Assembly (NCBI RefSeq): GCF_026210795.1
Contig: NC_089431.1
Span: 1,240,001 to 1,304,000 of the forward strand
Length of the DNA stretch: 64,000 bases
Origin: Rhizophagus irregularis
Taxonomy: Eukaryota
Reading direction: 5' to 3'
In this document: piece after piece, positions 1 to 48,539 of the stretch
Layout: the number at the start of each line of letters is the position of its first letter
Position numbering within the stretch: the first letter of the stretch is position 1
Made by a program: the position numbers and the translations under genes
The notes under the pieces: model-generated
Seen by the model: the letters and a program-made list of their open reading frames with translations, nothing else
Told to the model about the DNA's origin: nothing
Databases searched by the model: none

Positions 1-87
1 AATAGCAATTTAATATTTTTAATAATTATAATTATTTTATTGAATTTTTGTAGTTAAAAATATTAATAAGTTTTTGTCTATTAAAAG

Positions 88-1966
88 ATGCATGTTACAA
101 TTTCTACTATTGATTCAACTATTAAATCAGAAAATGTAGATGAAAGAGTAGTTTATATAGAAGATTTAGAAAAAAGAAAACAAGCATATGGAATATGTGG
201 AGAATGTAAAGAACCTGGTACAGGAGAATATTGGTGTCAACCTTGTAATGCTAAAAGATTTAAGGATAACTTTAAAAATTGGACTAGTGGAAATAAAGAT
301 ATTGATGAATTTATACAACAATCACAACTTAATGCTGTACATTGTTATAAATGTCTTGAATGGATACCTTTTGAAAAATTTCAAAATATCACTTATATTG
401 CAGAAGGTGGTTTTGGAAAGATTTATTCAGCAGAATGGCCTGAAGGATTTATTTCTCATTGGGATATTGAAAATCAAAAATGGTATAGATACAAAGATTC
501 GGATAAATATGCATTAAAAAGTTTGAATAATTCTTCTGATATATGTTCAGATTTTTTAAATGAGGTAATTTAAACTTACTTTGTCTTATATATAAAGATT
601 GTTATTTGCATTCATTTATTAATAAAATTTTTCTTTTTTAATGATAATTAGATTAACTCTCATCTTCAAATTTATCTTAATGATATTGTTGAATGTTATG
701 GAATTACTCAAGATCCAAATAATAAAGAGTATATGATGGTTTTAATTTATTGTAAAAATGGAAATTTGAGAAATTATTTAAATAAATCAAATAATTATAT
801 TAATTATAAATCAAAAATTGATCAATTACAACGAATTGCAAGAGGACTTTTAGATATTCATAATGCTGAAAAAGTTCACAAAGATTTTCATTCAGGTAAT
901 ATTTTATTTAATATTTATCCATATATAAGTGATTTAGGAATGTGTCAACCAGCAAATAAGCAAAAAGTTAAAGAAGAAGGAATTTATGGAGTATTACCAT
1001 ATATGGCACCAGAAGTTTTACGTGGATACCAATATACAAAAGCAGCAGATATTTATTCATTTGGAATAATAATGAACGAACTTCTTTCTGAAGAAATTCC
1101 TTTTAATGATATTCCTCATGATGATTTTTTAGCTATTAAAATTTGTAAAGGACTTAGACCAACAATTTCTAAAGACATACCAAAGTTACTTGCAGATTTA
1201 ATAATAAAATGTTGGGATGCTGAAATAAAAAATAGACCAACCACTAAAGAATTGTATCAACTATTAAAGAAATGGTATGATGAGATTGAAGAGATTGAAG
1301 GTAGTGAAGATAGTGAAGATAGTGAATATAGTGAAGATGATGAAGATGGTGAAGATGGTGAAGATGGTGAAGATGGTGAAGATGGTGAAGATGGTGAAGA
1401 TAGCAAAGATAGTAAAGATAGTGAAGATAATGAAGATAGTGAATATAGTGGAGATAGTGAATATGGTGAAGATAGTAGAAATGGTGACGATAGTGAAGAT
1501 GTTAAAGATAGTGAAGATGTTAAAGATAGTGAAAATGCTGACAATAGTCAAATTAGTGAAATATATTTTCAAATAAAAGAATGTGATAAAATTAGAAAAG
1601 AAAAATTCAAAAATAGATCAAATGAAGATAAATCCAAAAACTTCAAAACACATCCACAAGCAATTTATACTAGTAGACTTTTAAATTTCAAAAATCTTCC
1701 AAACCCAGTAAATTCTTCAGATGTACCATCATTTCAAGTTAATTCAGGTAAATTTTCCATTTTAATTAGTTATGAAAAAATCTTATTCAAGTTTTAACAA
1801 TATCAACTTTTTTTTAATAATAGATGATGTCCCATCAGTATCAACAAATCTAAGTAAGTATAATCATTAGTAATAATACTTTTTGTAATTATAAATTTAT
1901 ATTTTATTTTAACATTATTTTGTTATTTAATTTATAGTTTCAGAATGTTTTGATTATAGAATTTAG
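88..1966 (+). CDS. TKL-like Ser/Thr/Tyr protein kinase (Glomeromycotina expanded family), copy K1; first exon lies upstream of the window. Exons 88-564, 652-1747, 1824-1853, 1938-1966
   Basis: CGECKEP..WCQPC knuckle, AEGGFGKIY Gly loop, ALK, HKDFHSGN, DLG, YMAPE, DIYSFG. GT-AG introns at the same positions as paralogs K2/K3. AG acceptor at 86-87 directly precedes 88. Confidence 0.9.
1285..1545 (+). repeat. In-frame 9-bp coding minisatellite (GAAGATGGT/GAAGATAGT) encoding an acidic EDG/EDS tract in kinase K1
   Basis: Repeat is read directly in the sequence; absent from K2 and K3. Confidence 0.95.
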
Positions 1967-5304: not shown

Positions 5305-6600
5305 TTTTTTAATCAAAAACGTCAAAAATTTGATGTTTTTGTAATTGAAAAATCAAAAAAAAATTAATTTTTTTTAATCAAAACGTCAGACTTGACGTTT
5401 TTGTGATTGAAAAATCAAAAAAAATTGATTTTTTTTAATCAAAAACGTCAGACTTGACGTTTTTGTGATTAAAAAATCAAAAAAAAAATGATTTTTTTAA
5501 TCAAAAACGTCAGACTTGACGTTTTTGTGATTAAAAAATCAAAAAAAAATGATTTTTTTAATCAAAAACGTCAGACTTGACGTTTTTGTGATTAAAAAAT
5601 CAAAAAAAAATGATTTTTTCAATCAAAAACGTCAGACTTGACGTTTTTGTGATTAAAAAATCAAAAAAAATGATTTTTTTTTGATTTTTATTAGCTAAGA
5701 ACATCAGACTTGACGTTTTTTTTATTAAAAATCAAGAAAATTTGATTTTTATTAGCTAAGAACGTCAGACTTGACGTTTTTGTGATTAAAAAATCAAAAA
5801 AAATGATTTTTTTTTGATTTTTATTAGCTAAGAACGTCAGACTTGACGTTTTTGTTATTAAAAATCAAGAAAATTTGATTTTTATTAGCTAAGAACGTCA
5901 GACTTGACGTTTTTGTTATTAAAAATCAAGAAAATTTGATTTTTATTAGCTAAGAACATCAGACTTGACGTTTTTGTTATTAAAAATCAAGGAAAAATGA
6001 TTTTTATTAGCTAAGAACGTCAGACTTGACGTTTTTGTTATTAAAAATCAAGGAAAAATGATTTTTATTAGCTAAGAACGTCAGACTTGACGTTTTTGTT
6101 ATTAAAAATCAAGAAAATTTGATTTTTATTAGCTAAGAACATCAGACTTGACGTTTTTGTTATTAAAAATCAAGGAAAAATGATTTTTATTAGCTAAGAA
6201 CGTCAGACTTGACGTTTTTGTTATTAAAAATCAAGGAAAAATGATTTTTATTAGCTAAGAACGTCAGACTTGACGTTTTTGTTATTAAAAATCAAGGAAA
6301 AATGATTTTTATTAGCTAAGAACGTCAGACTTGACGTTTTTGTTATTAAAAATCAAGGAAAAATGATTTTTATTAGCTAAGAACGTCAGACTTGACGTTT
6401 TTGTTATTAAAAATCAAGGGAAAATGATTTTTATTAGCTAAGAACGTCAGACTTGACGTTTTTGTTATTAAAAATCAAGGGAAATTGATTTTTATTAGCT
6501 AAAAACGTCAGACTTGACGGTTTTGTTATTAAAAATCAAGGGAAAATGATTTTTATTAGCTAAAAACGTCATACTTGACGTTTTTGTTAGCTAAAAATCA
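5305..6600. repeat. Tandem array of ~21 units, period mostly 61 bp, each built around the hairpin AACGTCA-GACT-TGACGTT
   Basis: GACTTGACG core counted ~20 times, e.g. 5901 to 6511 spans 10 periods. Confidence 0.95.
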
Positions 6601-6607
6601 AAAAAAA

Positions 6608-8087
6608 TAGTGTACTTTTGTAAAAGTATACTAATAAATTAATAAAAGATTTTTTTATAAACAATAGATTGTGTTTAGTGAGATTTATAAAAAAATTTAA
6701 TGAGACTTTTTTTTAATAATAGTTTGGTATAAAAAAATTTTCTAGGATTTTTTTTTTAATAATATAATGGTATAGTACAATAGATAGATATAATAAAATT
6801 TTCTGGAATTTATTTTAATAACAATAGGTATGATAACATTTTTGGTGATTTTTTTTTAATATTAAACAATAGATTGGTATCATAGTACAATAGATTTATT
6901 TAATAAGATTTTTGTGATTTTTTTAATAACAATAAATTGGTAATAACAATCATTAACTTATTAAGTTAATAATTGTTTTTTAGTAAAATTTTTTCCAGTA
7001 ATACTAATACTACTAATAGGTAATAGATAACTTAATAAACTTTTATAAAATAGATTAAGATATATAAAAAAAATTTGAGATTTTTTTAACAATAGATTGG
7101 TATAGTACAATGAATAGATATAAAAAAATTTTCTGAATTTTTTTTTTTAATAATAGATTGATATAAATATATTTTCTGAACTTTTTTTTAACAATAGTCA
7201 TTAGATCAATATAAAAAATTTTTTGATAACAACAGATTGGTATGTTATAACTTATAATGGATAGATATAAAGAATTTTCTAAGATTTTTTATTAATACAA
7301 TAGATCAGTTTCTGGAATTTTTTATGACAAATTAATTGGTATAGTACAAAAGATACTAGGTATAAAATTTCTTGGGATTTATTTTAACAACAATAGGTAT
7401 GATAAAATTTTTGGTGACTTTTTTTTAATAACAATAGATTGGTAATAGACAATTATTACTGCGACTAGTAATTATTGAAAACCAATATGATTTGCCAATT
7501 CATTATCAGTTCAGTTTTTAATGTTTTTGCAACATTTTTTATTGTCTATTACCAATCTATTGTTATTAAAAAAAAACACAAAAAATTTTATTAAATCAAT
7601 CCATTGTACTATACCATCCATTGTACTATGATACCAATCTATTATTGTTATTAAAAAAAAATAATCACCAAAAATTTAGCATACCTATTGTTATTAATAT
7701 AAATCTCAGAAAATTTTATTATATCTATCTATTGTACTATACCATTAAAAAAATCTTGGAAAATTTTTTTATTAACCTTATTAAATGTAATCTATTGTTT
7801 TATTTATATTACTTATCAGTAATATTAGTGTTACTGTGAACTATAAAAAAAATCTTACTAAAAACAATTATTAACTTCAGTTAATAAGTTAATTGTTTAT
7901 TACCAATATATTGTTATTAAAAAAAAATCATAGAAAATTTTTTTATACCAAACTATTATTAAAAAAAATCTCATTAAATTTTTTTATAAATCTCACTAAC
8001 ACAATCTATTGTTATAAAAAAATCTTTTATTAATTTATTAGTATACTTTCAAAAATAAACTCACTCACTATATCCAAAAGTACACTA
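6608..8087. repeat. ~1.5-kb imperfect inverted repeat (foldback) made of degenerate subrepeats such as TAACAATAGATTGGTATAGTACAA
   Basis: TAGTGTACTTTTG (6608) pairs with CAAAAGTACACTA (8075-8087). 6622-6760 pairs with 7935-8050; 7420-7453 pairs with 7541-7575. Confidence 0.85.
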
Positions 8088-10238: not shown

Positions 10239-11353
10239 TGAATTAGGTTATTATAAAATATTGGTAATTATAAAAATATCAGTAGCTTCATTGGTAAGCA
10301 CTATACCTTATTATTTTTCATTTTATAAATGTAAATTTACATATTTTTTTTTAATTATTAGAGATTTTAAATAAAGCCAACTACTTTGAATCACGAAATT
10401 ATTATTAATTAATAAAAAATTATTTAGTCTTTTTTTTTTTTTGTTAACGAAAGCCGAAATGAAATTTTGACGTTCTTAATAATTCTAGATTCATATTCAC
10501 TGTTTCAGTGGCTTATCCAAATTATGAATTAAAAAATTCTATTTCCAGAAATTTCAAAAATCTTCCAGTCATTTTCTTATTTCATAAAAAAAAATGGAAA
10601 TAAAATAATGTAATAATGTAATAATGTTCTAATTGGAAATTATTCGACTTTTAGATGACATCAATTTAAATAAAATAAACATATTAAGCACATTATAGCC
10701 AGTATATTCAGATATTTTTATTTTATTATAAAAATTAAAATAAATATTCGCACCACCACCACACCGCACTGTAACACCACCATTATTACCTCCATTATAT
10801 CACATCACTACAATTAATTACTTACTTAACACATCATGACATATCGATCCGCTTCAATATAGTTTTCTGGTTGCGGTCTTGCCTGGAAAAATTTTTGATG
10901 ACAGGCCATCGGTAAAATCACGGGATAAATTTTTGCTTTGCGGGACCGTCTCAGAAATTTTTTGGTATGTTGACTTGAAAGTTGAATAAGATCGGATAAT
11001 AATGGAAAATTATTTTTATTAACTATTTTATAAAGAAATATTCCAAGTTTGCCACAATTTAATAACATTATGTAATCGATTCTCTTAAGATTGCCTGATA
11101 TTTAAGAAAATTGATCAATTGTTTTTCGTTTATATAGGCTTTTAAAAAAATTGGCATTCTGATTTCCTTACATTTAACATAATTATTATAATATTGAAAA
11201 CTTCCTTGCACAACAAAAAAGACATTAATATTATTGATTGATTGGATTTATTATAAGTAATAGTTATTTTACGGGAAGCATGAGATTGAGGCTGATTCGT
11301 GAAATAACCATGCTTATCCTTGACGACTATTAGGAAACGTGGTATAATACAAG

Positions 11354-13363
11354 TTATCCCCTGATCGACACCATTTACACGTTTATGCAAATATAGTTAT
11401 ACCTACTGGGTAGCAAATTTTATATGTATTTATTTATCCGTTCCTAGGAGATTTTGCACTAAAATTAGCTACTATTTTATACTATTGATTATTATACTAT
11501 TATTTATGCTACAATAACAAGTTATTTATTAAAATAACAAATTATAATAAAAATTATTCTTTTGTAATATTAATGGTAATATTAGCACATTTAATGAATT
11601 TAAGCTTAAAATTTTCAGCCAATTCTAAGTTTTTATCTTTACGTTTCAGAGGAATTGAAATATTTTGAATTTCAGAGAGTGTTTTTCTTGAAGATGAGTG
11701 AAATTCATTATTAGAGTCAACTTTATTTATATTTTCTTCATCACTGTCTTCGTGGACATACCCTGCAATATTGTCGCTAACCTTTTCTGTATCCTATTAA
11801 TATAATAAATATTATGTAAATTAAAAAAGAAATTATAAATATATTAGAAAAAGAAAAATACCTTGTGTACGCCTGGAAGTGTTAGTTTCGCAACTTCTAA
11901 TTTTTGAATTTCATTTTGTGAACGATACCTAAAAATACAGTGTGATTATAAAAGTTAAATAAATAAAAAATTATTATGAATTGGAAAAATAAGATACTTA
12001 CGAATTTAACCCTGCTAAAGATTTATGCAATGTTACATTCATAATAGCCTGAGGATCCAACCCTTCATCATTTAATTTTTGGGCAGTACGTTTTCGTAAG
12101 GAATGATTTACGACTCTTCTATTTGTACAATCAATACTAGTAATGGTGCAAATTTCTTTTAGCATTCTGGATAGTTTATCTCGACCCATATGCTGTGAAG
12201 AATACCACTTTCCCAGTTTAATATCTAATAGTATAGATTAATAAGCAATTAAAAATTAATTACATTAATAACATATCTCAATAAAAATAATATTACCTTC
12301 AGGATCTTTATTAACATGAAGAAAAAAATTTTTTTCAGCATTTTTTGGTCGTAAATTAAGATATTTTTTAATATCATAACATGCGCCACATTCTTTAGAT
12401 TCATCTGGAGGAATAATATGTGTAGGTGTTTGATTAGAGGTTGGTCGATGATAATAGCCCCCCTGATGGGTTTTATCATGAATTGTAATAATATCAAAGC
12501 CTCCATCATCACGTTCCTTAAAATGTTCAGCCATAAGATTATAATACGACCCTCCTCTTTGCGCTGTACAACATCCTACCCATAGAAAAACTCTTTTAAG
12601 TAATCCATCTGGCGTTTCATTTGACATGTTAGGATGCTCAAAGATCTTGACCATTTCATCATCTGTAAGAGCATCAGCACCATTATATTTACCATTGTTA
12701 ATATCTTCAAGCTCAATCATTCTAGTATGTAATGTATCACGAACTGCCCCAAATTCAAAGTCTTCATGTATGTTAAATGGCTCTTTATCTTTAAACAATT
12801 CTTGGTAACATCTATTTATGGCACAAATTCCATTGTATAGAGAATTTGCTTTATAATCCTTTTTTTCTCTTGTTTTAATAATTACAATAAATTCGCATAA
12901 CAACATTGCAATAACCTTCTTATCATAAAGAGTTAATAAATCAATATCTGGTTGTGTGTCATTCACAAATTCCTCAAATCTGGAGAACCATAATCTAGTA
13001 TTTTTCTTGGTATTTTCAGGTTTTGCTTTAGTGACATATCTTTGTAGAGTTTTTAAAGAAGGACGTTCATATGATTCTTTGGGAATAGATGGCTTTGAAA
13101 TTTCGTGTATATTAGAAATATTTACATTCTGCAAATGAGTAAAATTTTCTTTTAATTTATCTGTAACGTCAATATTATTTTTTGAGTGTAATAGTTCTGA
13201 AGCTTTTTTAAAATTTTGACTCATTTTTTAAAATGGAAAAATAGAAAATAGCGGGTGAAAGAAATTAGGATGCAACAATAAACTATATTTTATAATTACT
13301 GATTAACACGTGATATACTACAATAAAACAAATTTTTAATATTGTGTAAATGGCAGGGGATAA
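11354..13363 (-). mobile_element. Autonomous Crypton-like element bounded by inverted repeats TTATCCCCTG[ATCGACA]CCATTTACAC / GTGTAAATGGCAGGGGATAA
   Basis: 20-bp inverted repeat at 11354-11380 (with a 7-bp insertion) and 13344-13363 enclosing the recombinase gene. Confidence 0.75.
11554..13224 (-). CDS. Crypton-type tyrosine recombinase (DUF3504 / ZMYM-KCTD1-QRICH1-related), ~485 aa; exons 13224-12297, 12224-12002, 11928-11862, 11793-11554
   Basis: Spliced ORF of 1458 nt is open throughout. Motifs: NTKKNT..W..F, AQRGG (R), DKTHQGG (K), WYSSQHMGRDKL, NHSLR (HxxR), TLHKS (H), SYR (Y), C-terminal FIKCANITINI. Confidence 0.9.
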
Positions 13364-13368
13364 ATCAA

Positions 13369-13491
13369 TTATATCCTGGCTAATTGGAATAGTAAAATTT
13401 TACTTTAGAATCGGAACATGATCAGCCTATCGGCTGATCATTTATCCGATCCTAGTAAAATTTTACTTATTCCTAATTAGCCAGGATATAA
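13369..13491. repeat. 123-bp near-perfect hairpin module abutting the Crypton end (TTATATCCTGGCTAATT...ATGATCAGCC-TATC-GGCTGATCAT...AATTAGCCAGGATATAA)
   Basis: Palindrome read directly. Confidence 0.9.
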
Positions 13492-14165
13492 CTAATACTT
13501 ATACTCATATCTTTGAAACCATCAATAAAATCTCCCTAATTCTGTATAGAATCATCATTTATACGTAGAAATTTTATTTTATTAGTATTATTCTTTTGAA
13601 ATACAAAATAAGTAGATTAACTTTTACATTTTGCAAAGATTTAGTGTTTCAAATATAATTTCTTAACGTTTTTAATGGTATTATCATATAATTAAATAAA
13701 TATTGGTAAAAGTTCATTTAAAGTTTTACAAAAGATGACTAATAATTTGACGTATATACTTAATATTAGGATAAAACGGCTGCGCCATTTTATTTTTATT
13801 ATAATCAATTACAATAATATGTAAATATCAATATCACATGATTTAATGAATCTTTAAAACTTTGTATATAACTAATTAACTAGGAAATAATTTAATGTGT
13901 GTGAACCATTAATAAAATTATATTATAATTAATTTAATTATGACAGATGTATGTATTCTTTTAAACAAGTTGAATGCTTTATAATGTAAAACAAATATAC
14001 AAATAAGTTTTTTCTAATATCATAATATAATGTTAATATTAGCTGATATAAAGAATTATATATAAAGGAATCATTTATCTTGATGAATTTTAAAAAATTT
14101 TTAAACTCATTGAAATAATACCTATAAAAAAATTAATAAAGAAATTAAATATTAAAATAATAATC

Positions 14166-14672
14166 ATGAAAAAGGAACTGTCGGCAGCTTCTTCAATACT
14201 ATCAACATCCTTAAATACACCCACTACTATTACCATTACAGAAGAAGAATTAGTTGATTGGTTTCTGGAAAAAGATATTTGTAATCAATGTAGTGTGTCA
14301 AATGATAATATAAGAAAAAGAGGAAATGCATGGGATGCTTCAAGATTATGCACTTTATGCTATGGACAAGAAGAAAGATTAGCTGCTGCAAATACGCCCA
14401 CTATTACCACTACAGAAAAAAAATTAGTTGATTGGTACCTGGGAAAAGATATTTGTAATAAATGTGGTGTGTCAAATGATAATATAAGAAAAAGAGGAAA
14501 TGCATGGGATTCTCCAAGATTATGCACTTTATGCTATGAACGAGAAGAAAGATTAGCTGTTGCAAATACACTCACTACTATTACTATTGCTACTGCAGAA
14601 TATAGGACTCCTAAAATTCTTATAAAACAAAAATGTGAAAGAGTTCAAACAGTCTTTAATCTGATTACCTAG
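14166..14672 (+). CDS. 168-aa protein with two tandem 58-aa repeats, each containing a C-x2-C-x19-C-x2-C putative zinc finger
   Basis: ICNQC..RLCTLCY and ICNKC..RLCTLCY; 174-bp DNA duplication; open ORF starting at ATG. Confidence 0.6.
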   Translation: MKKELSAASSILSTSLNTPTTITITEEELVDWFLEKDICNQCSVSNDNIRKRGNAWDASRLCTLCYGQEERLAAANTPTITTTEKKLVDWYLGKDICNKCGVSNDNIRKRGNAWDSPRLCTLCYEREERLAVANTLTTITIATAEYRTPKILIKQKCERVQTVFNLIT

Positions 14673-15991: not shown

Positions 15992-17224
15992 TTACCTTTT
16001 TATGTATTGCTCAATTAATTAAATTTATCCGGCTGACACCAATAGTTTTACAAATACTTTTCTTTTACTCTCACTATGTCTTGTTCAAAATATTCTCGGG
16101 AGAATTACAAAAATTAACATATGATATTTAAAGTATTTTAAGAATGATTTTTCAACTTTATATTCATGTATTTTAGTTAACAGATTATGGTGTCCATTAT
16201 TATGGGAAAACCCATTTTCAAATCCTACAAAAAATTATAACTTTATTGAAATTTATTTACATAATTTAAATGGAGATTTAATAACAGAATTAAATGAATA
16301 TAGAATTGAGGATAATTTATTTCCTTCAAATACACTTTTCAATTATTCTAGTCTTATAAAGTATTTGAATACATGGAAGATTCTTCCTCCTATTTCTGAG
16401 TGGACCAAAAATGCTGTTAAAACTTTGAAACCTGAGAAAAGATATTCATGTGAGGTTGAAAATTTTCAAAGATTAATTCAAATGTTATTATTTAAACTGA
16501 TTATTGATAATGAAGCAAATTTACATACTCTTGAAATTGAGATCTTTTATACTTGGAATTCTCACTTAGATAATATTTTAGAATTAATTTTACAAAATCC
16601 AAATTTTATTCACAAAAATTTAAATTTTTATATTCGAAAAATTTCTTTAAATGGTAATGACTTTCTTTATCAATCATTATTATTAATAAAAGATTATAAT
16701 TGTTCAAACACTTTAAATACTAGTATCATATTATGTAATGTTAATTTTAAAGACATAATCAATTTAGATAAAATATTTGATCAATTAGAAGTTTTAGAAT
16801 CTGTTCATCTCATTTTTTGTCATTCCTTAAATACTAATTTTATTCAATAAATTATTAATTTAAATAGACCACTTAAATTAAAATCTTTAATTATAGACGA
16901 GGGATCACAAATTGATGATTCATCATTTCAATTATTATTACAAAATGTGGCAGTTATTTAGAGAATTTTGGGAATGAATTTGAAGTTCAAAGTGAAATAT
17001 TACTTGAATCAATTATACAAAAAAAAACAGCCGTTTTAGGAGTGGTGTCTTAGTATTTATAGGCATAAATAGATTTCTGAAGTGCAGAAGAGTTTTGTGA
17101 GAGAACATAAAACTAATTCATATGTAATAAAAATTGTCTATCTGCGAGTTTTGAATTTACTTAACTTCAAACTCACTTTTAATTATTCTCAAAAAGTTCT
17201 CTCTCTCTCACACATAAAGTAAAT

Positions 17225-20586: not shown

Positions 20587-21046
20587 GGTTACGCCGAAGT
20601 CTATTTCGCTGATACCTATTTTGCCGAGGTCATTTCACATGAGGGAAGTTTCACTGAAGAGATATTTCGTCGAATGGACGTTTTACCGAATAGACATTTC
20701 GCCGAATCCTTTTCCCTGAATCGTTCATTTTGTCGAAGAACATTTTGTTGAAAATATTAGTGATCAACATAATTCCTTAATCAATACAAAGAAAATAAAC
20801 AAATGCAACTTGTAATGTGTAAATAATTCGTTTGTCTTATAAAAAGAAAAAGGGAAACTGAAAAATTTCATATCTTCTCCCTTCGTCAAAATGGCTTTGG
20901 CGAAATATCCTTTGGTAAAATGGCCATTCGGTAAAATGTCCATTCGGGAAATGGCATTTCAGTGAAATGGTACTTCGGTGAAACATCCCTTCAGTGAAAT
21001 TGCTTCGGCGAAATGGGTTTCGGTGAAATGGACTTGTCCAGATCCC
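20587..21046. mobile_element. Non-autonomous Mutator-like (MULE) element with subterminal CATTTCGCCGAA repeat arrays in inverted orientation
   Basis: Perfect 9-bp TSD AAAATTTTT (20578-20586 and 21047-21055); G...C termini; mirrored repeat arrays. Confidence 0.75.
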
Positions 21047-21213: not shown

Positions 21214-21601
21214 TACATGTCGCCAAAATAATTTTTTAATTTCGGACCAATTTCGGCTTTGTGGCATAACTCCACAGTGTGTAAACGTAATCATCTGAAA
21301 TTTGTCAGAAGATTTCACTGGATTTCAGAGAGTGTAGAGAAGTTCTTAAATAATTTCGACTTTATTGACAACAATTTCAGCCAGGTTTGTGTATATTTCG
21401 GACATATAAAGGGACGAAGGTAAATAAGCTTAGCTGAAATTGTTGCCAATAAGACCGAAATTATCTGAGAATTCCTCTATATTCTCTAGGTTCTGGCAAA
21501 AATTTCTGCCAAGTTTCAGCTGGCTACTTTTGTACACTTTGGAGTTATGCCACAAAGCCGAAATTGGAACCGAAATTAAAAAATTATTTCGGCAACATGC
21601 A
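21214..21601. mobile_element. MITE with long (~170 bp) TIRs, TA-flanked (Tc1/mariner-like)
   Basis: TACATGTCGCCAAAATAATTTTTTAATTTCGG..GTGGCATAACTCCA pairs with TGGAGTTATGCCAC..CCGAAATTAAAAAATTATTTCGGCAACATGCA. Confidence 0.8.
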
Positions 21602-24929: not shown

Positions 24930-25205
24930 AATCCCGAGTCGACAAAAATAATCCCGAAAGTACATTACCTGACATATAATTATCCGACATACAATTATCC
25001 TGACTACCAAATAAATATTTTAGGTCTGAAATAATTGAATTAGCTATATTATTACAAAAAGTCCAAAGTTTATGTTGTATTATGAGATGTTTCTAATAAA
25101 ATAATGAAGTTTTTATGAAATTGAAATTGAAAGAATTTGTTGGAATAACAATTGTCAGGATAATTCAGGATTATTATGGTCGGTATTGTATTGAATCGGG
25201 CAAAT
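24930..25205. mobile_element. Degraded MITE with inverted subterminal repeats (ATTATCCTGAC / GTCAGGATAAT)
   Basis: Mirrored short repeats; ends not resolvable. Confidence 0.4.
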
Positions 25206-27908: not shown

Positions 27909-28245
27909 TGCAGGGTTATAAATGAGGTTATTATTTTTTATTTAAACTGTTTTCTTGTTTAAAAAAAAAAATAAAAAAAATTAATAAATAAAAATTATTT
28001 CGTTATTCATTCATTTTTTTTTTTTTTTTTCATTCATTATTCATTATTCATTATTCATTATTCATTATTCATTATTCTTTCTTTTCCATTTTCTTTGTAT
28101 TTTTTTTCTTTTTTTTTTCTTTCTTTCTTACTTTCTTACTTTCTTTCCTTCCTTTTCTTTTCCCTTTTTATTTTTTATTATTTTTTAAAAAAAAAGGAAA
28201 AAAAAACACCGCATTAATAATCCGCATTAATAAGTGATACATAAT

Positions 28246-30726
28246 ATGATAAAACAAAAGACGTCATTTGATTCTCTTATTGTAGATTCACATTCTGGTA
28301 AAGGAAAATTTTCACTTCCAACTTTACGAAGATATTCTTCTACAACAAATTTACATCAACAAGAAAATGTTAATACACCACAAATACTTCAAAGAAGTCT
28401 TTCATCAATATTTAGAAAAATACCGAAAAATTCTAACGAAAAAAGAGAAAATGATACCAATTCAATAGATGATGATAATGCATCTATAACTTCATCGGAT
28501 TCATCATTAGATGAAAATGATACTAAATATAATAATAAATTGATTTCAATATTTAGTGGTGCTTTTAATAATAAGGGTAATAATAATTTAAATAATAATC
28601 ATAATAAAAAGAAAAGATATAATTTTAATGAAATAATAGTAAGTAATGAAATAATAATTACTACTACTGATTCAAAAGATTTTAAAGATGATGAAAATTA
28701 TGGTTATATAAATCCTACCCTTACTACTTATGAAACTCATTTACATACTCCTACTCATAATTATTCTTTTTATTATCCTTGTCGAAGTAAATCCGTTCCT
28801 CTTTTACCTAAATTAAGTGAAGAATATTCTCAACTTTCTCGTCATACTTCTATTAATGAAAGAGAATTACCTACTATACCTGATGATAAAATTGTTTCTA
28901 CTTCTACTACTACTACCACTACTTCATCTCCTAAATCCTCTTTAACTATAAACGTTTCTCATGTTGAACCAACTTTATCTTTGGAAATTTTACGTTATTC
29001 TGTTTCAACTTCCCCTCTTATTTCTCCGAAACTTTCTTTACATTCTTCTTCTTCTCCTTCTCCTCCAAATTCTACTTCTCTTTTACCTTCATCATCATCT
29101 TCTCCTCCTTTACCTCCTTTACTTCCTTTATCATCTAAACCATCTACACCAGGATTATTGATAATACCCAATAATAACAATAATAATTGTAATAATAATA
29201 TCAAAACTATTACAAACATTGTTACCACACCTACCACACCTACAGAAATATCGGAATCATGGCCTTTCGCTCGTTATCCATTGAGATCAACATTTTATAA
29301 TTTATCCGATTTACCTCCTTCTAATCCTTCACCACGTTCTTTCAATAATTCAAAAATTTCTGTTACCCCACCTTTAAAACATTCCCAATCTAAAAGTTCA
29401 ACTCGATCATCTCGTTCAAAATCTGTATCACGTTCACTTTCTAAAAGTTCACTTCGTTCAAAATCATTATCACGTACTCATTCTAAAGGATCTCTTAGAC
29501 GTTCAAAATCTGAATTATTTCCACCAACTATAAAAAAATCTTATGATCCAAATCATTGTTTTTATGGATTATGTGAAAAATGTAAACAACCTCGTACAGG
29601 TATTTTATGGTGTCAATCTTGTTATACAACAATTTTTAGAAAAGATTTTGATAATTGGACAAGTGGAGATTATAATATTGATGAATTTATTAAGAAAACT
29701 CAAATAAATTCTAATAATATATGTGAATTACTTGAATGGATACCTTTTGAAAAATTTAGGGATTTACAATTAATAGGAGAAGGAGGTTATAGTATAGTTT
29801 ATTTAGCAAAATGGATTGATGGAAGAATATTAGATTTAAATGAAGATGGTAAATGGGAAAGAACAGGAGAAAATGATGTTATATTAAAAGTATTTTTTAA
29901 TTCAAAAGAACTTAGTGAAGATTATTTAAATGAACTTGACATTTATCATAAAAGTACACCAAAATTAAATCATGTATTAAGATGTTATGGAATATCAAAA
30001 GATCCTTTTGCAAAGAATACTATTATGGTAATGGAATATGCTAAAGATGGAAATTTAAAAAATCATTTAAAAAATAATTTTAATAATATTACATGGATTA
30101 AACGTATATCAATGATTAATGATATAACAAAATCATTAAAATCAATTCATTCATCTGGTTTAATTCATAAAGATTTACATTCAAGTAATATATTAATACA
30201 TGATGATTATACTTTTATTGATGATTTAGGTTTATGTACACCAAAAATTCAAAATAATAATAATAATGATTCAAATTTATTATATGGAGTTATGCCTTAT
30301 GTAGCTCCTGAAGTATTAAAAGGAAATCAATTTACCATGAAATCAGATATTTATAGTTTTGGTATGATAATGTATGAAATTATAACTTCTTTACCTCCTT
30401 ATCATGATTATAATTGGGATGAAAATTTATTACGAGATATTTGTGATGGGATTAGACCGAAAATTCCTGAAGGTATACCGAATTGTTATATAGAATTAAT
30501 GACAAAATGTTGGTCTCAAAATCCTGAGGATCGACCTAATGCGGATTATTTAGCCAAAATTCTTGAAGATTGGAAAAATAATATTTCACAAATAGAAGAA
30601 TTTAATATTGCGGAGCAATTTAGATTAAATCAATCAAATAGTATTGATATTGAAAAGTCAGTAAATTATAAAAGTAAAGCATTACCAAAGTTTTATGAAA
30701 TATTACCAACTTCATCAAATGAATAA
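28246..30726 (+). CDS. Intronless TKL-like protein kinase with a ~430-aa Ser/Pro/Asn-rich low-complexity N-terminus (826 aa from the first ATG)
   Basis: CEKCKQP..WCQSC, GEGGYS, VILK, HKDLHSSN, DLG, YVAPE, DIYSFG in one open ORF. Confidence 0.9.
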   Translation: MIKQKTSFDSLIVDSHSGKGKFSLPTLRRYSSTTNLHQQENVNTPQILQRSLSSIFRKIPKNSNEKRENDTNSIDDDNASITSSDSSLDENDTKYNNKLISIFSGAFNNKGNNNLNNNHNKKKRYNFNEIIVSNEIIITTTDSKDFKDDENYGYINPTLTTYETHLHTPTHNYSFYYPCRSKSVPLLPKLSEEYSQLSRHTSINERELPTIPDDKIVSTSTTTTTTSSPKSSLTINVSHVEPTLSLEILRYSVSTSPLISPKLSLHSSSSPSPPNSTSLLPSSSSSPPLPPLLPLSSKPSTPGLLIIPNNNNNNCNNNIKTITNIVTTPTTPTEISESWPFARYPLRSTFYNLSDLPPSNPSPRSFNNSKISVTPPLKHSQSKSSTRSSRSKSVSRSLSKSSLRSKSLSRTHSKGSLRRSKSELFPPTIKKSYDPNHCFYGLCEKCKQPRTGILWCQSCYTTIFRKDFDNWTSGDYNIDEFIKKTQINSNNICELLEWIPFEKFRDLQLIGEGGYSIVYLAKWIDGRILDLNEDGKWERTGENDVILKVFFNSKELSEDYLNELDIYHKSTPKLNHVLRCYGISKDPFAKNTIMVMEYAKDGNLKNHLKNNFNNITWIKRISMINDITKSLKSIHSSGLIHKDLHSSNILIHDDYTFIDDLGLCTPKIQNNNNNDSNLLYGVMPYVAPEVLKGNQFTMKSDIYSFGMIMYEIITSLPPYHDYNWDENLLRDICDGIRPKIPEGIPNCYIELMTKCWSQNPEDRPNADYLAKILEDWKNNISQIEEFNIAEQFRLNQSNSIDIEKSVNYKSKALPKFYEILPTSSNE

Positions 30727-34409: not shown

Positions 34410-35235
34410 ACAAGATGTTTCGCCGAAAGGACTTTTCGCCGAAAGTACAGTACATTTTATCGAATCCATTTCACCGAATCGTCCATTTCACCGAATCGCC
34501 CATTTCACCGAATTCTATTGACATTTCACCGAAAATGGTAGCGATTAACATTTTTTAGTCTGAAGTATAACGAGGGACTAAATATTTCTACGCAAGTTGA
34601 TATACAAGGTTCATGTCTGGATGTCCGTCCGGCAAAAGTGTCATTCTTGATATGTAATAATAAAAATATACACGTCTATCAAGAAATCATATCAAGAATG
34701 ATGTTTTTGCTTCTCACGTGACATTGTGCAACAAAAAAAACTTTAAATGGCACTTCTGACTTAATAACGGATTCCGTTTCCTAGTATAAAAAATATTCAA
34801 CGCGAAATGAAAATAAAAATATAAAAATGAAATATTTTTTTTTCCAAGATATTATCGATATTATCACTTTAGCATTTAAGTAACTGATATTAATTTTTAA
34901 GCAATAAATTAAATGTTTTCGGGAAAATAATGTACTATAACAACGTGATAATTTTAATAAATTTCATCTAATTCAAAATTTTTCTAGATGAAGATTTCCT
35001 TATGTGTTTAGTACAATAACCAAATTAGCCAAATGGAATAAATAATTTTTCAGCGAAATGTCCATTCGGCAAAACGTCCATTCGGTGAAATGGCTTCGGC
35101 GAAATGAAATTCGGTTTCGGTGAAATAGTATTTCGGCGAAATGTCCCCTCGGTGAAATACCCCTTCGGCGAAACATCCCTTCGACGAAATGGCTTTGGCG
35201 AGATGGATTCGGTGAAAAGTCCCGATCGATACCAT
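34410..35235. mobile_element. Second MULE-like element with CATTTCRCCGAA arrays (family of 20587-21046); exact ends not determined
   Basis: Arrays at 34415-34535 and, inverted, at 35050-35222. Confidence 0.6.
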
Positions 35236-35284
35236 TCTTAAATTACTACTTATATATACACCTATATCGCATAAATACCGTACC

Positions 35285-35404
35285 ATTCCGAAATTAAACA
35301 ACCATTTTTTGAACTTAATTCTGGCCAAAGTAGTCATAATTCTGGTCAAATTTGCCATAATGCGGGCCAGGGTTGCTTATTTCGGGGTTGTTTAATTTCG
35401 GAAT
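35285..35404. mobile_element. Small MITE with TIR ATTCCGAAATTAAACAACC
   Basis: Perfect 19-bp inverted repeat. Confidence 0.7.
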
Positions 35405-38158: not shown

Positions 38159-40092
38159 ATGGAATTGTTAAAAAAAATATTCAAAAAAAAGCCAAGAAAT
38201 ACTAGTATGGAAATTTTGAATAAAATATCCAAAGAAAAGCCAAGAAATTTATGGAAAAGGGTTGATTTTAATGAATATCAGGTGAATGTTATTTCAACTT
38301 ATACTTTATTATAAATATTATGATTAATTAACACATATATTTGATTACTTATTTAGATTCATGCAATTTCTTCTATTGATTCTACTACCAAATCGGAAGA
38401 GATTGATGATAAAGTAGTTTATATGGAAGACTTAGAAAAAAGAAAAAAAGCATATGGTACATGTGGAGAATGTAATGAACCTGGCACAGGAGAAAATTGG
38501 TGTCAATCTTGTAATTCAAAAAGATTTAAGGGAAATTTTAAAAATTGGACTAGTGGAAATAAAGATATTGATGAAATAGTACAATATTCACAACTTAATT
38601 CTTTACACTGTTTTAACTGTCTTGAATGGATATCTTTTGAGAAATTTCAAAATGTTACCTATATTACCAGAGGAGGCTTTGGTAAAATTTACTCAGGTGA
38701 ATGGTCTGAAGGATATATTGATTATTGGGATATTGAAAATCAAAAATGGTACCGAAACGCAGGTCAAACAGTTGCATTAAAAAGTTTGGATAATTCTTCT
38801 GAAATTAGTGCTGATTTTATAAATGAGGTAATTAAATAAAAAAAAATTAATTTAATGTGCATTATATCTAAATTGTCATTGTTTTTATTAAATTTTTTTT
38901 AAAAAAATTTAATTATTAGATCAAATCTCATCTTCAGATTTATTGTCAGGGTATTGTTCTCTGCTTTGGAATAACTCAAGATCAAAATACCAAAGATTAT
39001 ATGATGGTTTTAAAATATTGTGAAGAAGGAAATTTAAGAAATTACTATTTAAATAATTACGATGATACTATAAAACTTTATAGATTATCAGCAATTGCAA
39101 ATGGACTGTTAAGTATCCATAATGCTGAAAAAGTCCATAAAGACTTTCATTCAGGCAATATATTGTATGGTGGTGCTATGTTGATAAGTGATTTAGGAAT
39201 GTGTCAACCAGCAAATAATAAAGAGAAATCAGATAAAAAAGAAGGAGTTTATGGAGTATTACCTTATATGGCACCAGAAGTTTTACGTGGATGTCAATAT
39301 ACAAAAGCAGCTGATATTTATTCATTTGGAATAATTATGAATGAGTACCTTTCTGAAGAAATTCCTTTTAGTGATATTCCTCATGATCATATTTTAGCTG
39401 TTAAAATATGTAAAGGACTTAGACCAAAAATTTCTGAAGATATTCCAAAATTTCTTGTAGATTTAATTATGAAATGTTGGGATGCTAAAGCTGAAAATAG
39501 ACCAACTGCTAAAGAATTGTATCAAATATTAAAGAAATATTGGAAAACAAATGAAATTCGTTCTCAAATGTGGGAATATGATGATAAAATTAGAGAAAAA
39601 AATTTAAAAAACAGATCGAATGACAATAAGTCTGAAAGTATTAAAACTCATCCTCAAGCAATCTATACAAGTAGACTTTTAAATTTTAAAAATCTTCCTG
39701 AACCAGTAAATTCATCAGATTTATCATTATTTCAAGTTAATTCAGGTAAATCTTCAATTTTAATTTGAATTATGAAAATTTTATTCAAGTTTTAATAACA
39801 ATATTAACAAATATCCAATTTTTTTAATAATAGATGATGTTCCATCAGCATCAGAAAATCTAAGTAAGTATAACCATTATTATTACACGGCCCTATAGGA
39901 CCATCATGCACATGTTGTACCAATATTTAGCATATCGTGCTTATAATATAATGATTTCATACCATTATTAAGCACACCCCGTCGCCTCGTGCAATAACAT
40001 ACAATTAATTTGTAATTATAAATTCATATTTTATTTTACATTACATTGTTGTTTAATTTATAGTTTCAGAATGTTTTGATTGCAAAATTTAA
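38159..40092 (+). CDS. TKL-like kinase copy K2; exons 38159-38281, 38357-38827, 38920-39745, 39834-39863, 40064-40092
   Basis: In-frame GT-AG splicing; RGGFGKIY, VALK, HKDFHSGN, DLG, YMAPE. Confidence 0.9.
39880..39997. mobile_element. 118-bp insertion in K2 intron 4 with ends TTATTACACG...CGTGCAATAA (putative non-autonomous Crypton module)
   Basis: Absent from the equivalent introns of K1 and K3; 9/10 terminal inverted repeat resembling module arms at 11264-11347. Confidence 0.6.
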
Positions 40093-42082: not shown

Positions 42083-43983
42083 ATGGAAATTTTAAATAAA
42101 ATATCCAAAGAAAAGCCAAGAAATTTATGGAAAAAAGTTGATTCGAATAAATATCATGTAAATGAAATTTCAATTTATAATTTATTATAAATATTATGAT
42201 TAATTAACAAATATATTTTGGTTACTCATTTAGAAACATGTTACAATTTCTTCTATTGATTCAGCTACTAAATCAGAAGAGATTGATGATAGAATAATTT
42301 ATATGGATGAAATAGAAAAAAGAAAAGAAGTATATGGTATATGTGGAGAATGTAATGAACCTGGCATGGGAGAAAATTGGTGTCAATCTTGTAATTCAAA
42401 AAGATTTAAGGAAAATTTTAAAAATTGGACTAGTGGAAATAAACATATTGATGAATTAATACAACATTCACAACTTAATTCTTTACACCGCCTTAATAGT
42501 CTTGAATGGATACCTTTTGAGAAATTTCAAAATGTTACCTATATTACCAGAGGAGGCTTTGGTAAAATTTATTCAGGTGAATGGCCTGAAGGAGATATTA
42601 GGTATTGGGATATTGAAAATCAAAGATGGAAAAGAAACATAAATTGTAAAGTTGCATTAAAAAGTTTGGATAATTCTTCTGAAATTAGTGCTGATTTTAT
42701 AAATGAGGTAATTAAATAAAAAAAATTTAGTGTTCATTATGTTTAAATTGTCATTGTTATTTTTATTAAAAAATTTTAATTATTAGATCAAATCTCATCT
42801 TCAGATTTATTTTCGGGGTATCATTTTCTGCTATGGACTAACTCAAGATCCAAATACCAAAGATTATATGATGGTTTTAAAATATTGTGAAGAAGGAAAT
42901 TTAAGAAATTACTATTTAAATAATTATTGTGATACTGTAAAACTTTATGAATTATCAAGCATTGCGAATGGACTGTTAAGTATCCATAATGCTGAAAAAG
43001 TCCATAAAGACTTTCATTCAGGAAATATATTATATGGTGGGGCTATATTTATAAGTGATTTAGGAATGTGTCAACCAGCAAATGTGATGTCAGGTAAAGA
43101 AGGAGTTTATGGAGTATTACCTTATATGGCACCAGAAGTTTTACGTGGATATCAATATACAAAAGCAGCTGATATTTATTCATTTGGAATAATTATGAAT
43201 GAGTTTCTTTCTGAAGAAATTCCTTTTAATGATATTCCTCATGATCATATTTTAGCTGTTAAAATATGTAAAGGACTTAGACCAAAAATTTCTGAAGATA
43301 TTCCGAAATTTCTTGTAGATTTAATTATGAAATGTTGGGATGCTAAAGCAGAAAATAGACCAACTGCTAAAGAATTATATCAAATATTAAAAAAATGGGA
43401 TAAAGAAGATGAGAAATTCAATAGTGAAATTCGTTCTCAAATGAGGGAATGTTATACAAAAATTAGAGAAAAATCACTGAAAAACATTTCAAATGAAAAT
43501 AAGTCTGAAAGTATTAAAACTCATCCTCAAGCAATCTATACAAGTAGACTTTTAAATTTCAAAAATCTTCCAGAACCAGTAAATTCTTTAGATTTATCAT
43601 CATTTCAAGTTGATTCAGGTAAATTTTCAATTTTAATTATGAAAAAATCTTATCCAAGTTTTAACGATATCAATTTTTTTTTTTTTAATAATAGATGATG
43701 TTTCATCTGTATCAGAAAACCTAAGTAAGTAGTACATAATAATTAATTATTTTTGTAATTATAAAATTTACTTTATATTTTATTTTAACATTATATTATT
43801 ATTTAATTAATTTATAGTTTCAGAATGCTTTGATGTTCAATTCAGTGAATCAGGTAAAATAATTTATTTGAAGTAATTTATTATCTTATTAATAGTTTTC
43901 TCATCTAATTTTATTTAATTATTCTAATAATAGATCTCAACGAAATTAATCAAGAAGAAGATAATTTGAATGATGAGTCTTAA
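42083..43983 (+). CDS. TKL-like kinase copy K3; exons 42083-42157, 42234-42707, 42787-43618, 43695-43724, 43818-43853, 43934-43983
   Basis: In-frame GT-AG splicing; all kinase motifs as in K2; ends ISECFDVQFSESDLNEINQEEDNLNDES*. Confidence 0.9.
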
Positions 43984-47120: not shown

Positions 47121-48539
47121 AAGAATCTTTAATTATTTTTTAATATTTAATTAATATTCACTAAATTTACTAAATTTCTTTCTTTTAACGTTGCAAATTT
47201 ATTTTATCGATCTTTCACGCATCTATCGTATTGCAAAATAACTTACTTTCAAGATATCTTCATAGTATTACAAAATATATCTGTTGAAGAATCAACCGGA
47301 CAAATCGATTGCGCAATCAAAAGTCTGAATGACTTCCTTTATATCACTGAAGGAAAGTCTTGCGCCTTCAAAATAGGTTATGCATAGGTACTGTAATTCT
47401 ACTACTTGCGTTTTTTTTAGGAGATTCAATGACATTAACACCGACATTTTATTTCTTAGAATCTGGCACAACTTGAAAGTGTATACTAAATAAATAAGAT
47501 GGAACAAACCACGGATCAAGCATTTTGGTAGTAACAGTTATTTTGACTACTTCTGTGCTGAATTCTACAAGTGGCAGCGAGTACCAATTGTGGGTTGTTG
47601 AAGGATGGATTAGTACCGATAGTTTTCCAGCTAGCAAGAGGGCTAGAATCAAAAAAAAATCGATCAAAAAATGATGGGCATCAAAACAGATAGGCGCTAG
47701 TGAAGCGCTTCACATTTTTTTTTACTTTGCTTTCGTGTATTATCGGCTATGTCCCGACACTTGTAATTTATTTTTCATATAATAATAAAAAATTAATATC
47801 GTGTAGCATTATTTTTTTTGCTTTGGTCAACATGATAACAGGCACCTAGCAACTTTAATGCCGCTAGCATGTATTATGCGGTTATATAGCAATATGATAG
47901 TGGCTACATTTTATAAGGAAATATTTTATCAATTTACGTTAATATTCATACGGTACAGTACTATTTTTGAATAATGTTAATTTTTTCATAAATATTATTC
48001 AAAAATATTGATTTTATTATTAACTTTAATGAAAGTATGAACCGATTTTTATTTTTAATATACTTTGCAAATATATAGTAAGGATTATGCACAAGATGCC
48101 GGATCTCATAAGGCTGATTGTGGCAAAACTGAAGGATAAGCTAAAGTCTATCAGTAGTTTAAAATTGTATACGGGACGTTAATCTCAGTTATTTATCATC
48201 ACGGCTCCTCCGTGATAATTAATGATTCCCGTTAAATAACTATTACTATAGACGTTTATTTTTTTTTTATTTTTTAATGAAGGAAAGGGACGACAGACTG
48301 TTTATTATCATTATTATTTTTTTTTGTACAAGTTATTTTTATTTATATATAGTTAATTAGTGAAAGAAATTATGTACAATTTTTTTATATATATTAACAA
48401 GAAATTAAGTTGATTAAGAAAGCGAAACCTTAACAGCTACATAAAGAATAAAATTTTAATTTTCTTTAAGTTATAATTAATACTATGTACTGCAAATAAT
48501 TACAGTAATGATAAAAATATTATAATGTTGTAGAACTGC

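What the first reader, a model, noticed from the sequence alone, without database searches (positions are those of the whole stretch)
11250..13510. Tyrosine recombinase embedded in a chain of cassettes joined by dif/lox-like sites: a possible integron- or pdif-like modular system in a fungus
Seen in sequence: the Crypton gene is one of at least four abutting modules, each starting TTAT and ending ATAA. A (11264-11307) is TTATTTTACG..CGTGAAATAA. B (11314-11347) is TTATCCTTGA..CGTGGTATAA, with imperfectly matched ends. C (11354-13363) is TTATCCCCTG..CAGGGGATAA and holds the recombinase. D (13369-13491) is TTATATCCTGG..CCAGGATATAA. Every junction reads ATAA-spacer-TTAT, with spacers GTAATAG, CCATGC, TACAAG, ATCAA and CTAATAC (5-7 bp). 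Established: tyrosine recombinase core sites (dif, loxP) are two inverted binding arms around a 6-8 bp spacer, and E. coli dif itself has a CATAA-TGTATA-TTATG core. Inference: each junction is a recombination site, so modules could be excised as circles, inverted or stacked at existing sites, building cassette arrays rather than single transposon insertions. I am not aware of a description of this arrangement in Glomeromycotina but cannot verify novelty.
Basis: partly seen in the sequence, partly recalled or inferred. Interest (0 to 1): 0.88.

Follow-up and report, generated by a model that had tools for sequence, protein, structure and literature searches.

The report
Fungal transposon with fold-back recombination end
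A jumping gene of a root-symbiotic fungus has sharply defined, lopsided ends (a 123-base hairpin with a fixed seven-base tag on one side, bare host DNA on the other), and it likely inserts as a folded single strand into short dif-like sites, as the cholera phage and integron cassettes do, which would explain why related mini-elements pile up at one spot.

Summary
The coordinates and five junctions are exact, but the bare ATAA-N5-7-TTAT motif is not enriched. The gene is an intact CryptonA-type (Glomhopper-like) tyrosine recombinase, identical to a Rhizophagus irregularis protein. Seven metagenome copies show that A-B-C-D is not a four-cassette array. D (123-bp hairpin) and C are one element: D adjoins C in 6 of 6 left ends. 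D's outer 7-nt spacer is fixed and donor-borne (5 of 5). The spacer after C's other end is a variable 6-nt host sequence followed by TT; one copy interrupts a Sel1 gene. This polarity, the 7+5 internal spacers, G.T wobbles confined to one strand and a head-to-tail junction that folds into a two-armed site point to CTX-phage/integron-like single-strand integration (inferred, untested). A is a related mini-hairpin with a second copy at 48.2 kb; B is doubtful. The window is best read as one host site hit from both strands. Stacking or rearrangement at a spacer recurs in L002 and L007. The 2026 Glomhopper paper could not define these ends. No isolate or read data could be examined.

The parts
11554..13224 (-). 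Tyrosine recombinase gene, 4 exons (13224-12297, 12224-12002, 11928-11862, 11793-11554), 485 aa, uninterrupted, with R223-K251-H350-R353-H376-Y385
   Evidence: GT-AG introns and stop codon found by script against database protein P0001; R223, K251, R353, H376, Y385 at least 90% conserved in 80 homologues; model pLDDT 86, Foldseek best hit Cre E 1.7e-9
11354..13363 (-). Module C, the gene-bearing core: perfect 10-bp inverted ends (11354-11363, 13354-13363) and a second complementary 10-bp box (11371-11380, 13344-13353)
   Evidence: the box changes at both ends together between subfamilies
13364..13368 (-). Internal 5-nt spacer between D and C, invariant
   Evidence: same in L001, L002, L003, L004, L006; one change in L007
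13369..13491 (-). Module D, 123-bp imperfect palindrome forming the element's left end; predicted stem of the folded donor site
   Evidence: z = -16; 94-99% identical across copies whose 5' leaders are 53-71% identical between subfamilies; one compensatory pair
13492..13498 (-). Outer 7-nt donor spacer that travels with D
   Evidence: first six bases identical in window, L002, L004, L006, L007; seventh varies
13499..13502 (+). Host half of the target site on the right (TTAT)
   Evidence: sequence; host origin inferred
11348..11353 (.). 6-nt host-type spacer, inferred remnant of the original target site, between B and the right end of C
   Evidence: differs in every copy
11264..11307 (+). Module A, 44-bp mini-hairpin, likely a non-autonomous relative of D
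   Evidence: z = -2.9; homologue at 48 kb
11257..11263 (+). Outer 7-nt spacer of A, one mismatch from the donor spacer of D
   Evidence: identical in the 48-kb copy
11308..11313 (.). 6-nt spacer between A and B, host-type length
   Evidence: differs in the 48-kb copy
11314..11347 (.). Module B, 34 bp; a degenerate mini-element or host DNA, status open
   Evidence: no hairpin, no second copy, only its right arm scores well
11253..11256 (+). Host half of the target site on the left (ATAA)
   Evidence: sequence; host origin inferred
48183..48246 (-). Second A-family hairpin: 7-nt spacer 48246-48240, 51-bp body 48239-48189, different 6-nt spacer 48188-48183 followed by TT

Best explanation
D plus C form one CryptonA-type DNA transposon of about 2.15 kb with a fixed 7-nt spacer and a hairpin at one end and host DNA directly at the other, and it likely moves as a single-stranded circle whose folded junction is predicted to serve as the donor site for one strand exchange with an ATAA-N6-TTAT host site. 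Shown by sequence comparison: the anatomy (7-nt spacer, D, 5-nt spacer, C, 6-nt host spacer, TT), the target preference and the polarity. Inferred: in the circle the two ends of C pair with each other (10 bp plus a 10-bp box), D forms a stem, and the 7-nt and 5-nt spacers face each other between these two arms. The recombinase would cut just 3' of ATAA on the gene strand and swap that strand with the host strand, and replication would finish the job. This leaves the donor spacer on the left and the host spacer on the right with no need for spacer homology. Each insertion regenerates a site with one strong arm, so later elements would land on it. The window is then one host site hit from both strands: D-C on the minus strand, and A (with or without B) on the plus strand, tail to tail. 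How the single strand arises (lagging-strand template or cruciform) is a guess; the element encodes no Rep protein or helicase.
For: Polarity: the donor spacer is on the D side in 5 of 5 outer D junctions, and a different hexamer follows C in 5 of 5 host-flanked right ends. All 7 informative loci have this one polarity; p = 1/128 if the two daughter types of a double-stranded heteroduplex were equally likely. Target: TT at +7/+8 in 4 of 4 right ends outside the window, and in the 48-kb A copy, at a background of 0.156. L002 interrupts a Sel1 gene (E 6.8e-35), and a sister repeat in the same contig shows the unbroken ATAA-N6 site. No homology: host hexamers match the donor spacer at 3, 1, 0, 5 and 2 of 6 positions. 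The natural head-to-tail junction in L002 folds into one continuous two-armed stem, -66.2 kcal/mol on the gene strand against -63.2 on the other. All 6 D copies fold better on the gene strand; transition mismatches at 5 distinct D positions and 1 internal A position are all G.T on the strand that follows the 7-nt spacer, none A.C (p about 1/64). CTX attP has the same layout: two inverted dif-like sites about 90 bp apart with non-6-bp centres, a hairpin, one strand exchange (PMC3089051). Introns are kept in all 7 copies, which argues against a spliced RNA intermediate. Stacking on another module recurs at 2 of 6 right junctions outside the window.
Against: No single-stranded or circular DNA was observed; the L002 junction may be a tandem copy. 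Only 7 short metagenome contigs were available, and assembly across a shared 123-bp palindrome can be wrong (L001 and L006 carry the same dataset prefix). L006 and the 48-kb A copy lack the TAA expected before the donor spacer. L004's host spacer matches the donor at 5 of 6, as a direct-repeat model would predict. The strand energy differences are small for five of six copies (1.9-3.1 kcal/mol), and G.U bias also fits an RNA hairpin or strand-biased mutation. The 48-kb A copy looks like a solo hairpin, which offers only one arm when folded, and it shows no strand bias. The fold is nearer to Cre (TM 0.55) than to the integron integrase (0.41). A and B arms score poorly against C/D arms.
Confidence: 0.5

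Rival explanations
1. Same D+C element, but it moves as a double-stranded circle. The head-to-tail junction is an ordinary lox-like site that recombines with non-matching host spacers through a heteroduplex, as Tn916 and CTnDOT do, with strand-biased repair. D is a binding array, promoter or RNA hairpin and not a folded DNA site.
For: Circular intermediates are the standing Crypton model (PMC3212892) and were shown for Starships (bioRxiv 10.64898/2026.09.21.753150). CryptonF-1 of Chlamydomonas has a donor motif at one terminus (PMC9977147). Tn916 needs no coupling-sequence homology (PMC5812530). The fold is Cre-like, and Tn1549 integrase is also matched. D lies just upstream of the gene on the transcribed strand.
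Against: An even-handed heteroduplex would put the donor spacer on the right in half the copies and replace it over generations; 7 of 7 loci have one polarity and the spacer is kept across subfamilies about 70% identical. It does not explain why a second lox-like site with a 5-nt centre lies on the far side of a hairpin.
Confidence: 0.25
2. One reading: D, A and C are separately mobile, each brings its own spacer on its 5' side, and C preferentially lands on the right end of D, so that arrays grow cassette by cassette.
For: D does not follow C's descent: L003 and L004 are 99% identical in C but 95.9% in D, while L004 and L006 are 74% identical in C but 99.2% in D. L007 carries D inverted on C's right end through the 5-nt spacer. 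The 48-kb A copy looks solo.
Against: No solo D and no C without D was seen (6 of 6 left ends have D; the search was by protein and so could not find solo D). In L007 the 5-nt spacer keeps D's orientation, not C's. D exchange can equally be gene conversion or assembly collapse. Modules of 34-51 bp are probably too short for double-stranded Cre-type excision (limit about 80 bp, recalled, not from a call).
Confidence: 0.17
3. D+C is a real element, but the chain to its left is coincidence: B, and perhaps A, are AT-rich host DNA or unrelated repeats, and the odd junctions in L002 and L007 are assembly artefacts.
For: The bare motif is at background level. B has no structure and no second copy. 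Held-out arm scores are weak. Palindromes are prone to misassembly.
Against: A has a homologue with the same 7-nt spacer (0 of 100 shuffles), that spacer is one base from D's (p 0.013), and the L002 and L007 joints fall exactly at module ends.
Confidence: 0.08

Closest known systems
Glomhoppers, the DUF3504 CryptonA elements of Glomeromycota (Krysinska et al. 2026, PMC13465315)
   Same: Single intron-containing tyrosine recombinase gene with intact catalytic residues and Cre-like fold, in a Rhizophagus-type genome; a relative with the same peptide motif is among the paper's raw hits.
   Different: The paper found no identifiable boundaries or conserved terminal repeats. Here the ends are defined to the base: hairpin, fixed donor spacer, bipartite inverted ends, ATAA-N6-TT target.
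CryptonF and CryptonS elements (Goodwin model; CryptonF-1_cRei, PMC9977147; PMC3212892)
   Same: Tyrosine recombinase transposition without target duplication; a donor motif at one terminus; copy number rises; rearrangements at target sites.
   Different: Those have 4-6-bp direct repeats and near-identical targets, and are described as lacking inverted ends. Here donor and host spacers mostly do not match, C has inverted ends, and a 123-bp hairpin is attached.
CTX phage attP(+) and related elements that exploit Xer (PMC3089051)
   Same: Two inverted dif-like sites with non-6-bp centres flanking about 100 bp; a fold-back creates the donor site; target has a 6-bp centre; integration leaves a usable site and gives arrays.
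   Different: CTX uses host XerCD, needs base pairing next to the cut, and has its own rolling-circle source of single strands. This element encodes one recombinase, shows no spacer homology and has no Rep gene; its mechanism is inferred.
Integron cassettes (attC x attI; PMC4792948)
   Same: Imperfect palindrome with bulges and strand bias, little sequence homology at the crossover, one strand exchange resolved by replication (inferred here).
   Different: No gene cassettes, no fixed attI/promoter platform; the recombinase gene itself moves; fold nearer to Cre than to IntI.
Acinetobacter pdif modules (PMC13141974)
   Same: Abutting modules separated by dif-like sites, with inversions at sites.
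   Different: pdif modules carry genes, use host XerCD and rearrange between identical or nearly identical spacers; none of this holds here.

Membership tests
CryptonA / Glomhopper | Single ORF encoding a tyrosine recombinase with intact R-H-R-Y residues | tested here: met
   485-aa spliced ORF with R223, K251, H350, R353, H376, Y385; Cre-like model
CryptonA / Glomhopper | DUF3504 domain (QRICH1/ZMYM kinship) | tested here: inconclusive
   PF12012 E 3.2e-5, 24.5 bits, below the curated cut-off of 29.7; QRICH1 domain also below cut-off. But it passes the paper's looser E 0.005 filter, the family profile hits the QRICH1 structure at E 5.5e-32, and sources name relatives DUF3504 or ZMYM2-like
CryptonA / Glomhopper | Placement in the Glomhopper subclade of a recombinase tree | not tested
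   No tree was built with the paper's reference sequences
CryptonA / Glomhopper | Repeated, independent insertions in Glomeromycota genomes | tested here: met
   48 homologues, the named ones all Glomeromycota; 7 loci, with different flanks wherever a flank is held
Crypton (classical description) | No terminal inverted repeats; 4-6-bp direct repeats at both ends | tested here: not met
   C has 10-bp inverted ends plus a box; donor and host spacers match well only in L004, 1 of 5
Integron | Gene cassettes each with an attC site, arrayed at attI beside a resident integrase and promoter | tested here: not met
   A, B and D are 34-123 bp and carry no gene; the recombinase gene lies within the mobile unit
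Integron | Recombination of a folded single strand with replicative resolution | not testable with these tools
   Indirect signs only
Integron | IntI-specific domain for the single-strand pathway | tested here: inconclusive
   IntI4 is matched (E 1e-5 by profile; TM 0.41) but less well than Cre; the insertion was not mapped on the model
pdif module system | [quoted passage not shown] | tested here: not met
   The five spacers differ in length and sequence; the element has its own recombinase
CTX-type integration (works like) | Two inverted sites flanking a hairpin in the circular form, target with a 6-bp centre | tested here: met
   L002 junction and its fold; 6-nt host spacers
CTX-type integration (works like) | Base pairing between donor and target next to the cut; single-stranded circular form | tested here: inconclusive
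   No spacer homology beyond the shared ATAA; strandedness cannot be tested here

The most novel reading that the evidence does not exclude
A eukaryotic transposon family uses the single-strand, fold-back-site route known only from integrons and CTX-type phages: one recombinase moves its own gene and a set of tiny hairpin modules into ATAA-N6-TTAT sites without spacer homology, regenerates a landing site each time and so builds stacked arrays, with the hairpin end exchanged between subfamilies.
Probability: 0.35. Interest if true: 0.9.

Novelty: new variant of a known kind. Interest (0 to 1): 0.72.

Why it matters
CryptonA elements gave rise to the animal ZMYM2/3/4 and QRICH1 genes, yet no terminal repeats were found for them in animals (PMC3212892) or in Glomeromycota (PMC13465315), and their mechanism is unknown. 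Base-exact ends, a target rule and a fixed polarity make the question directly testable: annotate full elements and non-autonomous hairpins, look for circles, reconstitute with oligonucleotides. If the single-strand route holds, it extends an asymmetric reaction thought to be bacterial to eukaryotes, offers a source of rearrangement in largely clonal mycorrhizal fungi, and suggests a compact, homology-independent integrase for a short AT-rich target.

Tried and rejected
No whole genome was held and no sequencing runs could be examined, so the genome-wide motif scan, isolate comparison and empty-site check were not done. The protein alignment found no relative in viral contigs (0 of 248 stretches) or prokaryote genomes (0 of 73); it found 7 of 376 in metagenomes. 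D-end patterns gave 3 viral hits, which lack the rest of D and are chance, and 3 bacterial hits, which I did not open and take for chance. Supplements of PMC11075540 and PMC8647823 hold none of four end motifs (one file of the latter was not searched). Earlier scan notes gave nothing on this element. Rejected: the bare motif as evidence; a whole A-B-C-D unit flanked by direct repeats (the two outer spacers share a 5-base core, but A-B is absent from all other copies and the outer spacer of D is fixed regardless of flank); target-site duplication (L002's Sel1 frame needs none); hairpin-telomere flip-flop (D's loop keeps one orientation relative to the inner spacer in all 6 copies); a retro-element (introns kept). 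A third A-like stretch near 55,120 is too weak to count. L001 was left out of the junction counts because it holds no outer junction.
Full report
OBSERVATION. The four-base motif alone proves nothing in this 25% GC DNA: 75 sites against 62.3 +- 8.0 in 200 shuffles, and three sites within 110 bp in 11.5% of shuffles. The modules differ in strength. D folds with z = -16 (0 of 200 shuffles), A with z = -2.9 (1 of 200), B not at all.

THE GENE. C holds a four-exon gene on the minus strand (13224-11554, 485 aa, no break). Its first exon is 100% identical to a Rhizophagus irregularis protein, and the named ones among 48 homologues are all Glomeromycota. R223, K251, R353, H376 and Y385 are at least 90% conserved in 80 homologues, and H350 is present. 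The model (pLDDT 86) matches Cre best (E 1.7e-9, TM 0.55), the integron integrase and Tn1549 integrase less well. Pfam gives Phage_integrase above cut-off, DUF3504 and QRICH1 below. The family profile hits the QRICH1 structure at E 5.5e-32. This is the CryptonA lineage, named Glomhopper in 2026 (PMC13465315; I read parts 1-5 of 9, abstract to methods, and searched its one supplement, which is held cut). That paper could not identify boundaries or repeats.

OTHER COPIES. No genome of this organism and no read data were available, so the comparison rests on 7 metagenome contigs of 1.7-2.8 kb (7 of 376 stretches). Read in the direction of the gene: (1) D, or its last 18 bases in L007, adjoins the left end of C in 6 of 6 loci that cover it, through the same 5-nt spacer in 5 of 6. 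(2) Outside D, the 7-nt spacer begins with the same six bases in 5 of 5 junctions (window, L002, L004, L006, L007) whatever the flank; TAA precedes it in L004 and L007 but not in L006. (3) After the right end of C the next six bases differ in each of 5 host-flanked junctions, and TT follows in all, 4 of 4 without the window, at a background of 0.156 (the length 6 was chosen from three). (4) In L002 the right flank is a Sel1 gene cut just after ATAA; a sister repeat in the contig shows the unbroken site. (5) Host hexamers match the donor spacer at 3, 1, 0, 5 and 2 of 6 positions; L004 is the exception that would fit a direct repeat. (6) A and B occur in none of the loci. (7) L002 also has a head-to-tail joint (C right end, donor spacer, D), from a tandem copy or a circle, and L007 has an inverted D on C's right end through a 5-nt spacer.

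D BEHAVES ODDLY. It is 94-99% identical among six copies, while between subfamilies the adjoining leader is 53-71% and the first 300 coding bases 69-86% identical; D and C trees disagree (L003/L004: C 99%, D 95.9%; L004/L006: C 74%, D 99.2%). This means exchange at or near the D/C junction, gene conversion, or partly assembly collapse. One pair is compensatory. Transition mismatches at five D positions are all G.T on the gene strand and none A.C; all six copies fold better on that strand, by 1.9-7.4 kcal/mol. A shows the same on the strand that follows its 7-nt spacer (one internal wobble, two more at the stem end that I do not count).

A AND B. A has a homologue at 48239-48189 on the minus strand with the identical 7-nt spacer, a different 6-nt spacer and TT: the same rule as D-C. 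Its spacer is one base from D's (p 0.013). Against this, A and B arms score weakly on a profile made only from C and D arms of other copies (30%, 6%, 35%, 2.7% of background), so another subfamily's recombinase may move A, and B may be host DNA or a decayed module.

HOW IT LIKELY WORKS. The spacers fall into three classes: 7-nt donor, 5-nt internal, 6-nt host. In a circle, the ends of C meet the donor spacer and D. The natural L002 joint folds into a single long stem in which C's right end pairs with C's left end (10 bp, a 7-nt bulge, a 10-bp box), the two spacers face each other, and D forms the second arm. One strand exchange just 3' of ATAA on the gene strand, finished by replication, gives exactly the product seen: donor spacer left, host spacer right, no duplication. 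A double-stranded circle with a heteroduplex, as in Tn916 (PMC5812530 passages), should give both polarities; 7 of 7 loci show one (p = 1/128). The layout parallels CTX attP(+): two inverted dif-like sites about 90 bp apart, centres of 12 and 6-7 bp, one exchange, a functional site regenerated (PMC3089051, part 1 of 3), and integron attC sites (PMC4792948 passages). All five junctions of the window follow from one host site hit on both strands: D-C on minus, A(-B) on plus, with the host spacer left at 11348-11353. These steps are inference. I put the anatomy and target rule at about 0.8, the single-strand route at about 0.5, and the full novel reading at 0.35.

COMPARISON AND NOVELTY. It is very likely a Glomhopper/CryptonA element by its protein, though no tree was built and DUF3504 is below Pfam's cut-off. 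It fails the classical Crypton description (direct repeats, no inverted ends; PMC3212892 passages, section 8 and supplement search). CryptonF-1 has a one-sided donor motif but a near-identical target (PMC9977147 passages). Starships use a circle with microhomology (bioRxiv 10.64898/2026.09.21.753150 passages). It is not an integron or a pdif system (PMC13141974 abstract). I found no description of this end structure in searches for Crypton + tyrosine recombinase (40 of 91 listed), Crypton + Rhizophagus, CryptonA + terminal + palindrom, Crypton + hairpin + single-stranded and Eulor + hairpin, nor in passages of PMC5753468, PMC12130899 and PMC11075540. Repbase entries, the GitHub library of PMC11075540, figures, bioRxiv supplements and the cut part of the Glomhopper supplement were not seen and may hold these ends.

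VERDICT. A real and largely undescribed feature. New variant of a known kind; interest 0.72.

Noticed in passing
window 48140-48255 (-): The second A-family hairpin sits in a longer imperfect palindrome (z = -3.5) with a nested inner hairpin; a B-like start follows about 45 bp downstream.
   Followed up: partly
window 55114-55150 (-): An 11-bp tandem repeat ending in a weak look-alike of A's left end, followed by a small hairpin.
   Followed up: partly
window 5330-6608: Satellite of about 21 copies of a 61-bp unit, each with a strong internal hairpin.
   Followed up: no
window 14094-14672 (+): 192-aa frame with two copies of a 58-aa repeat bearing CxxC pairs (174-bp tandem duplication), 600 bp from D; only weak Pfam matches.
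   Followed up: no
window 20640-21040 and 34465-35400: Two GC-richer patches of degenerate 16-bp repeats of one type that fold into small hairpins; probably one dispersed repeat family.
   Followed up: no
window 85-1797, 28234-30726, 38357-39768, 42234-43698, 55376-56788; 16125-16850, 57771-59516: Several kinase-like genes and F-box-like genes, judged by eye from the translations; typical expanded families of these fungi.
   Followed up: no
window 21362-21452, 24995-25163, 35294-35395, 39880-39997, 62049-62097: Other short stretches with TTA/TAA ends and 9-10 of 10 inverted-end matches; possible small inverted-repeat elements or chance.
   Followed up: no
L007:1641-1765: This D copy has its inner arm converted to the exact complement of the outer arm, a sign of arm-to-arm conversion or of misassembly.
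   Followed up: partly
L002:2040-2050 and contig start: The copy lacks the last codons of the gene, and the contig begins exactly at that deletion point, which bears on whether the head-to-tail joint is a tandem or a circle.
   Followed up: partly
proteins P0084, P0085, P0097: Distant full-length homologues (25-28%) come from an aphelid, a chytrid and an anaerobic amoeba, wider than the fungal range given for Glomhoppers; their ends could be checked for the same hairpin.
   Followed up: no
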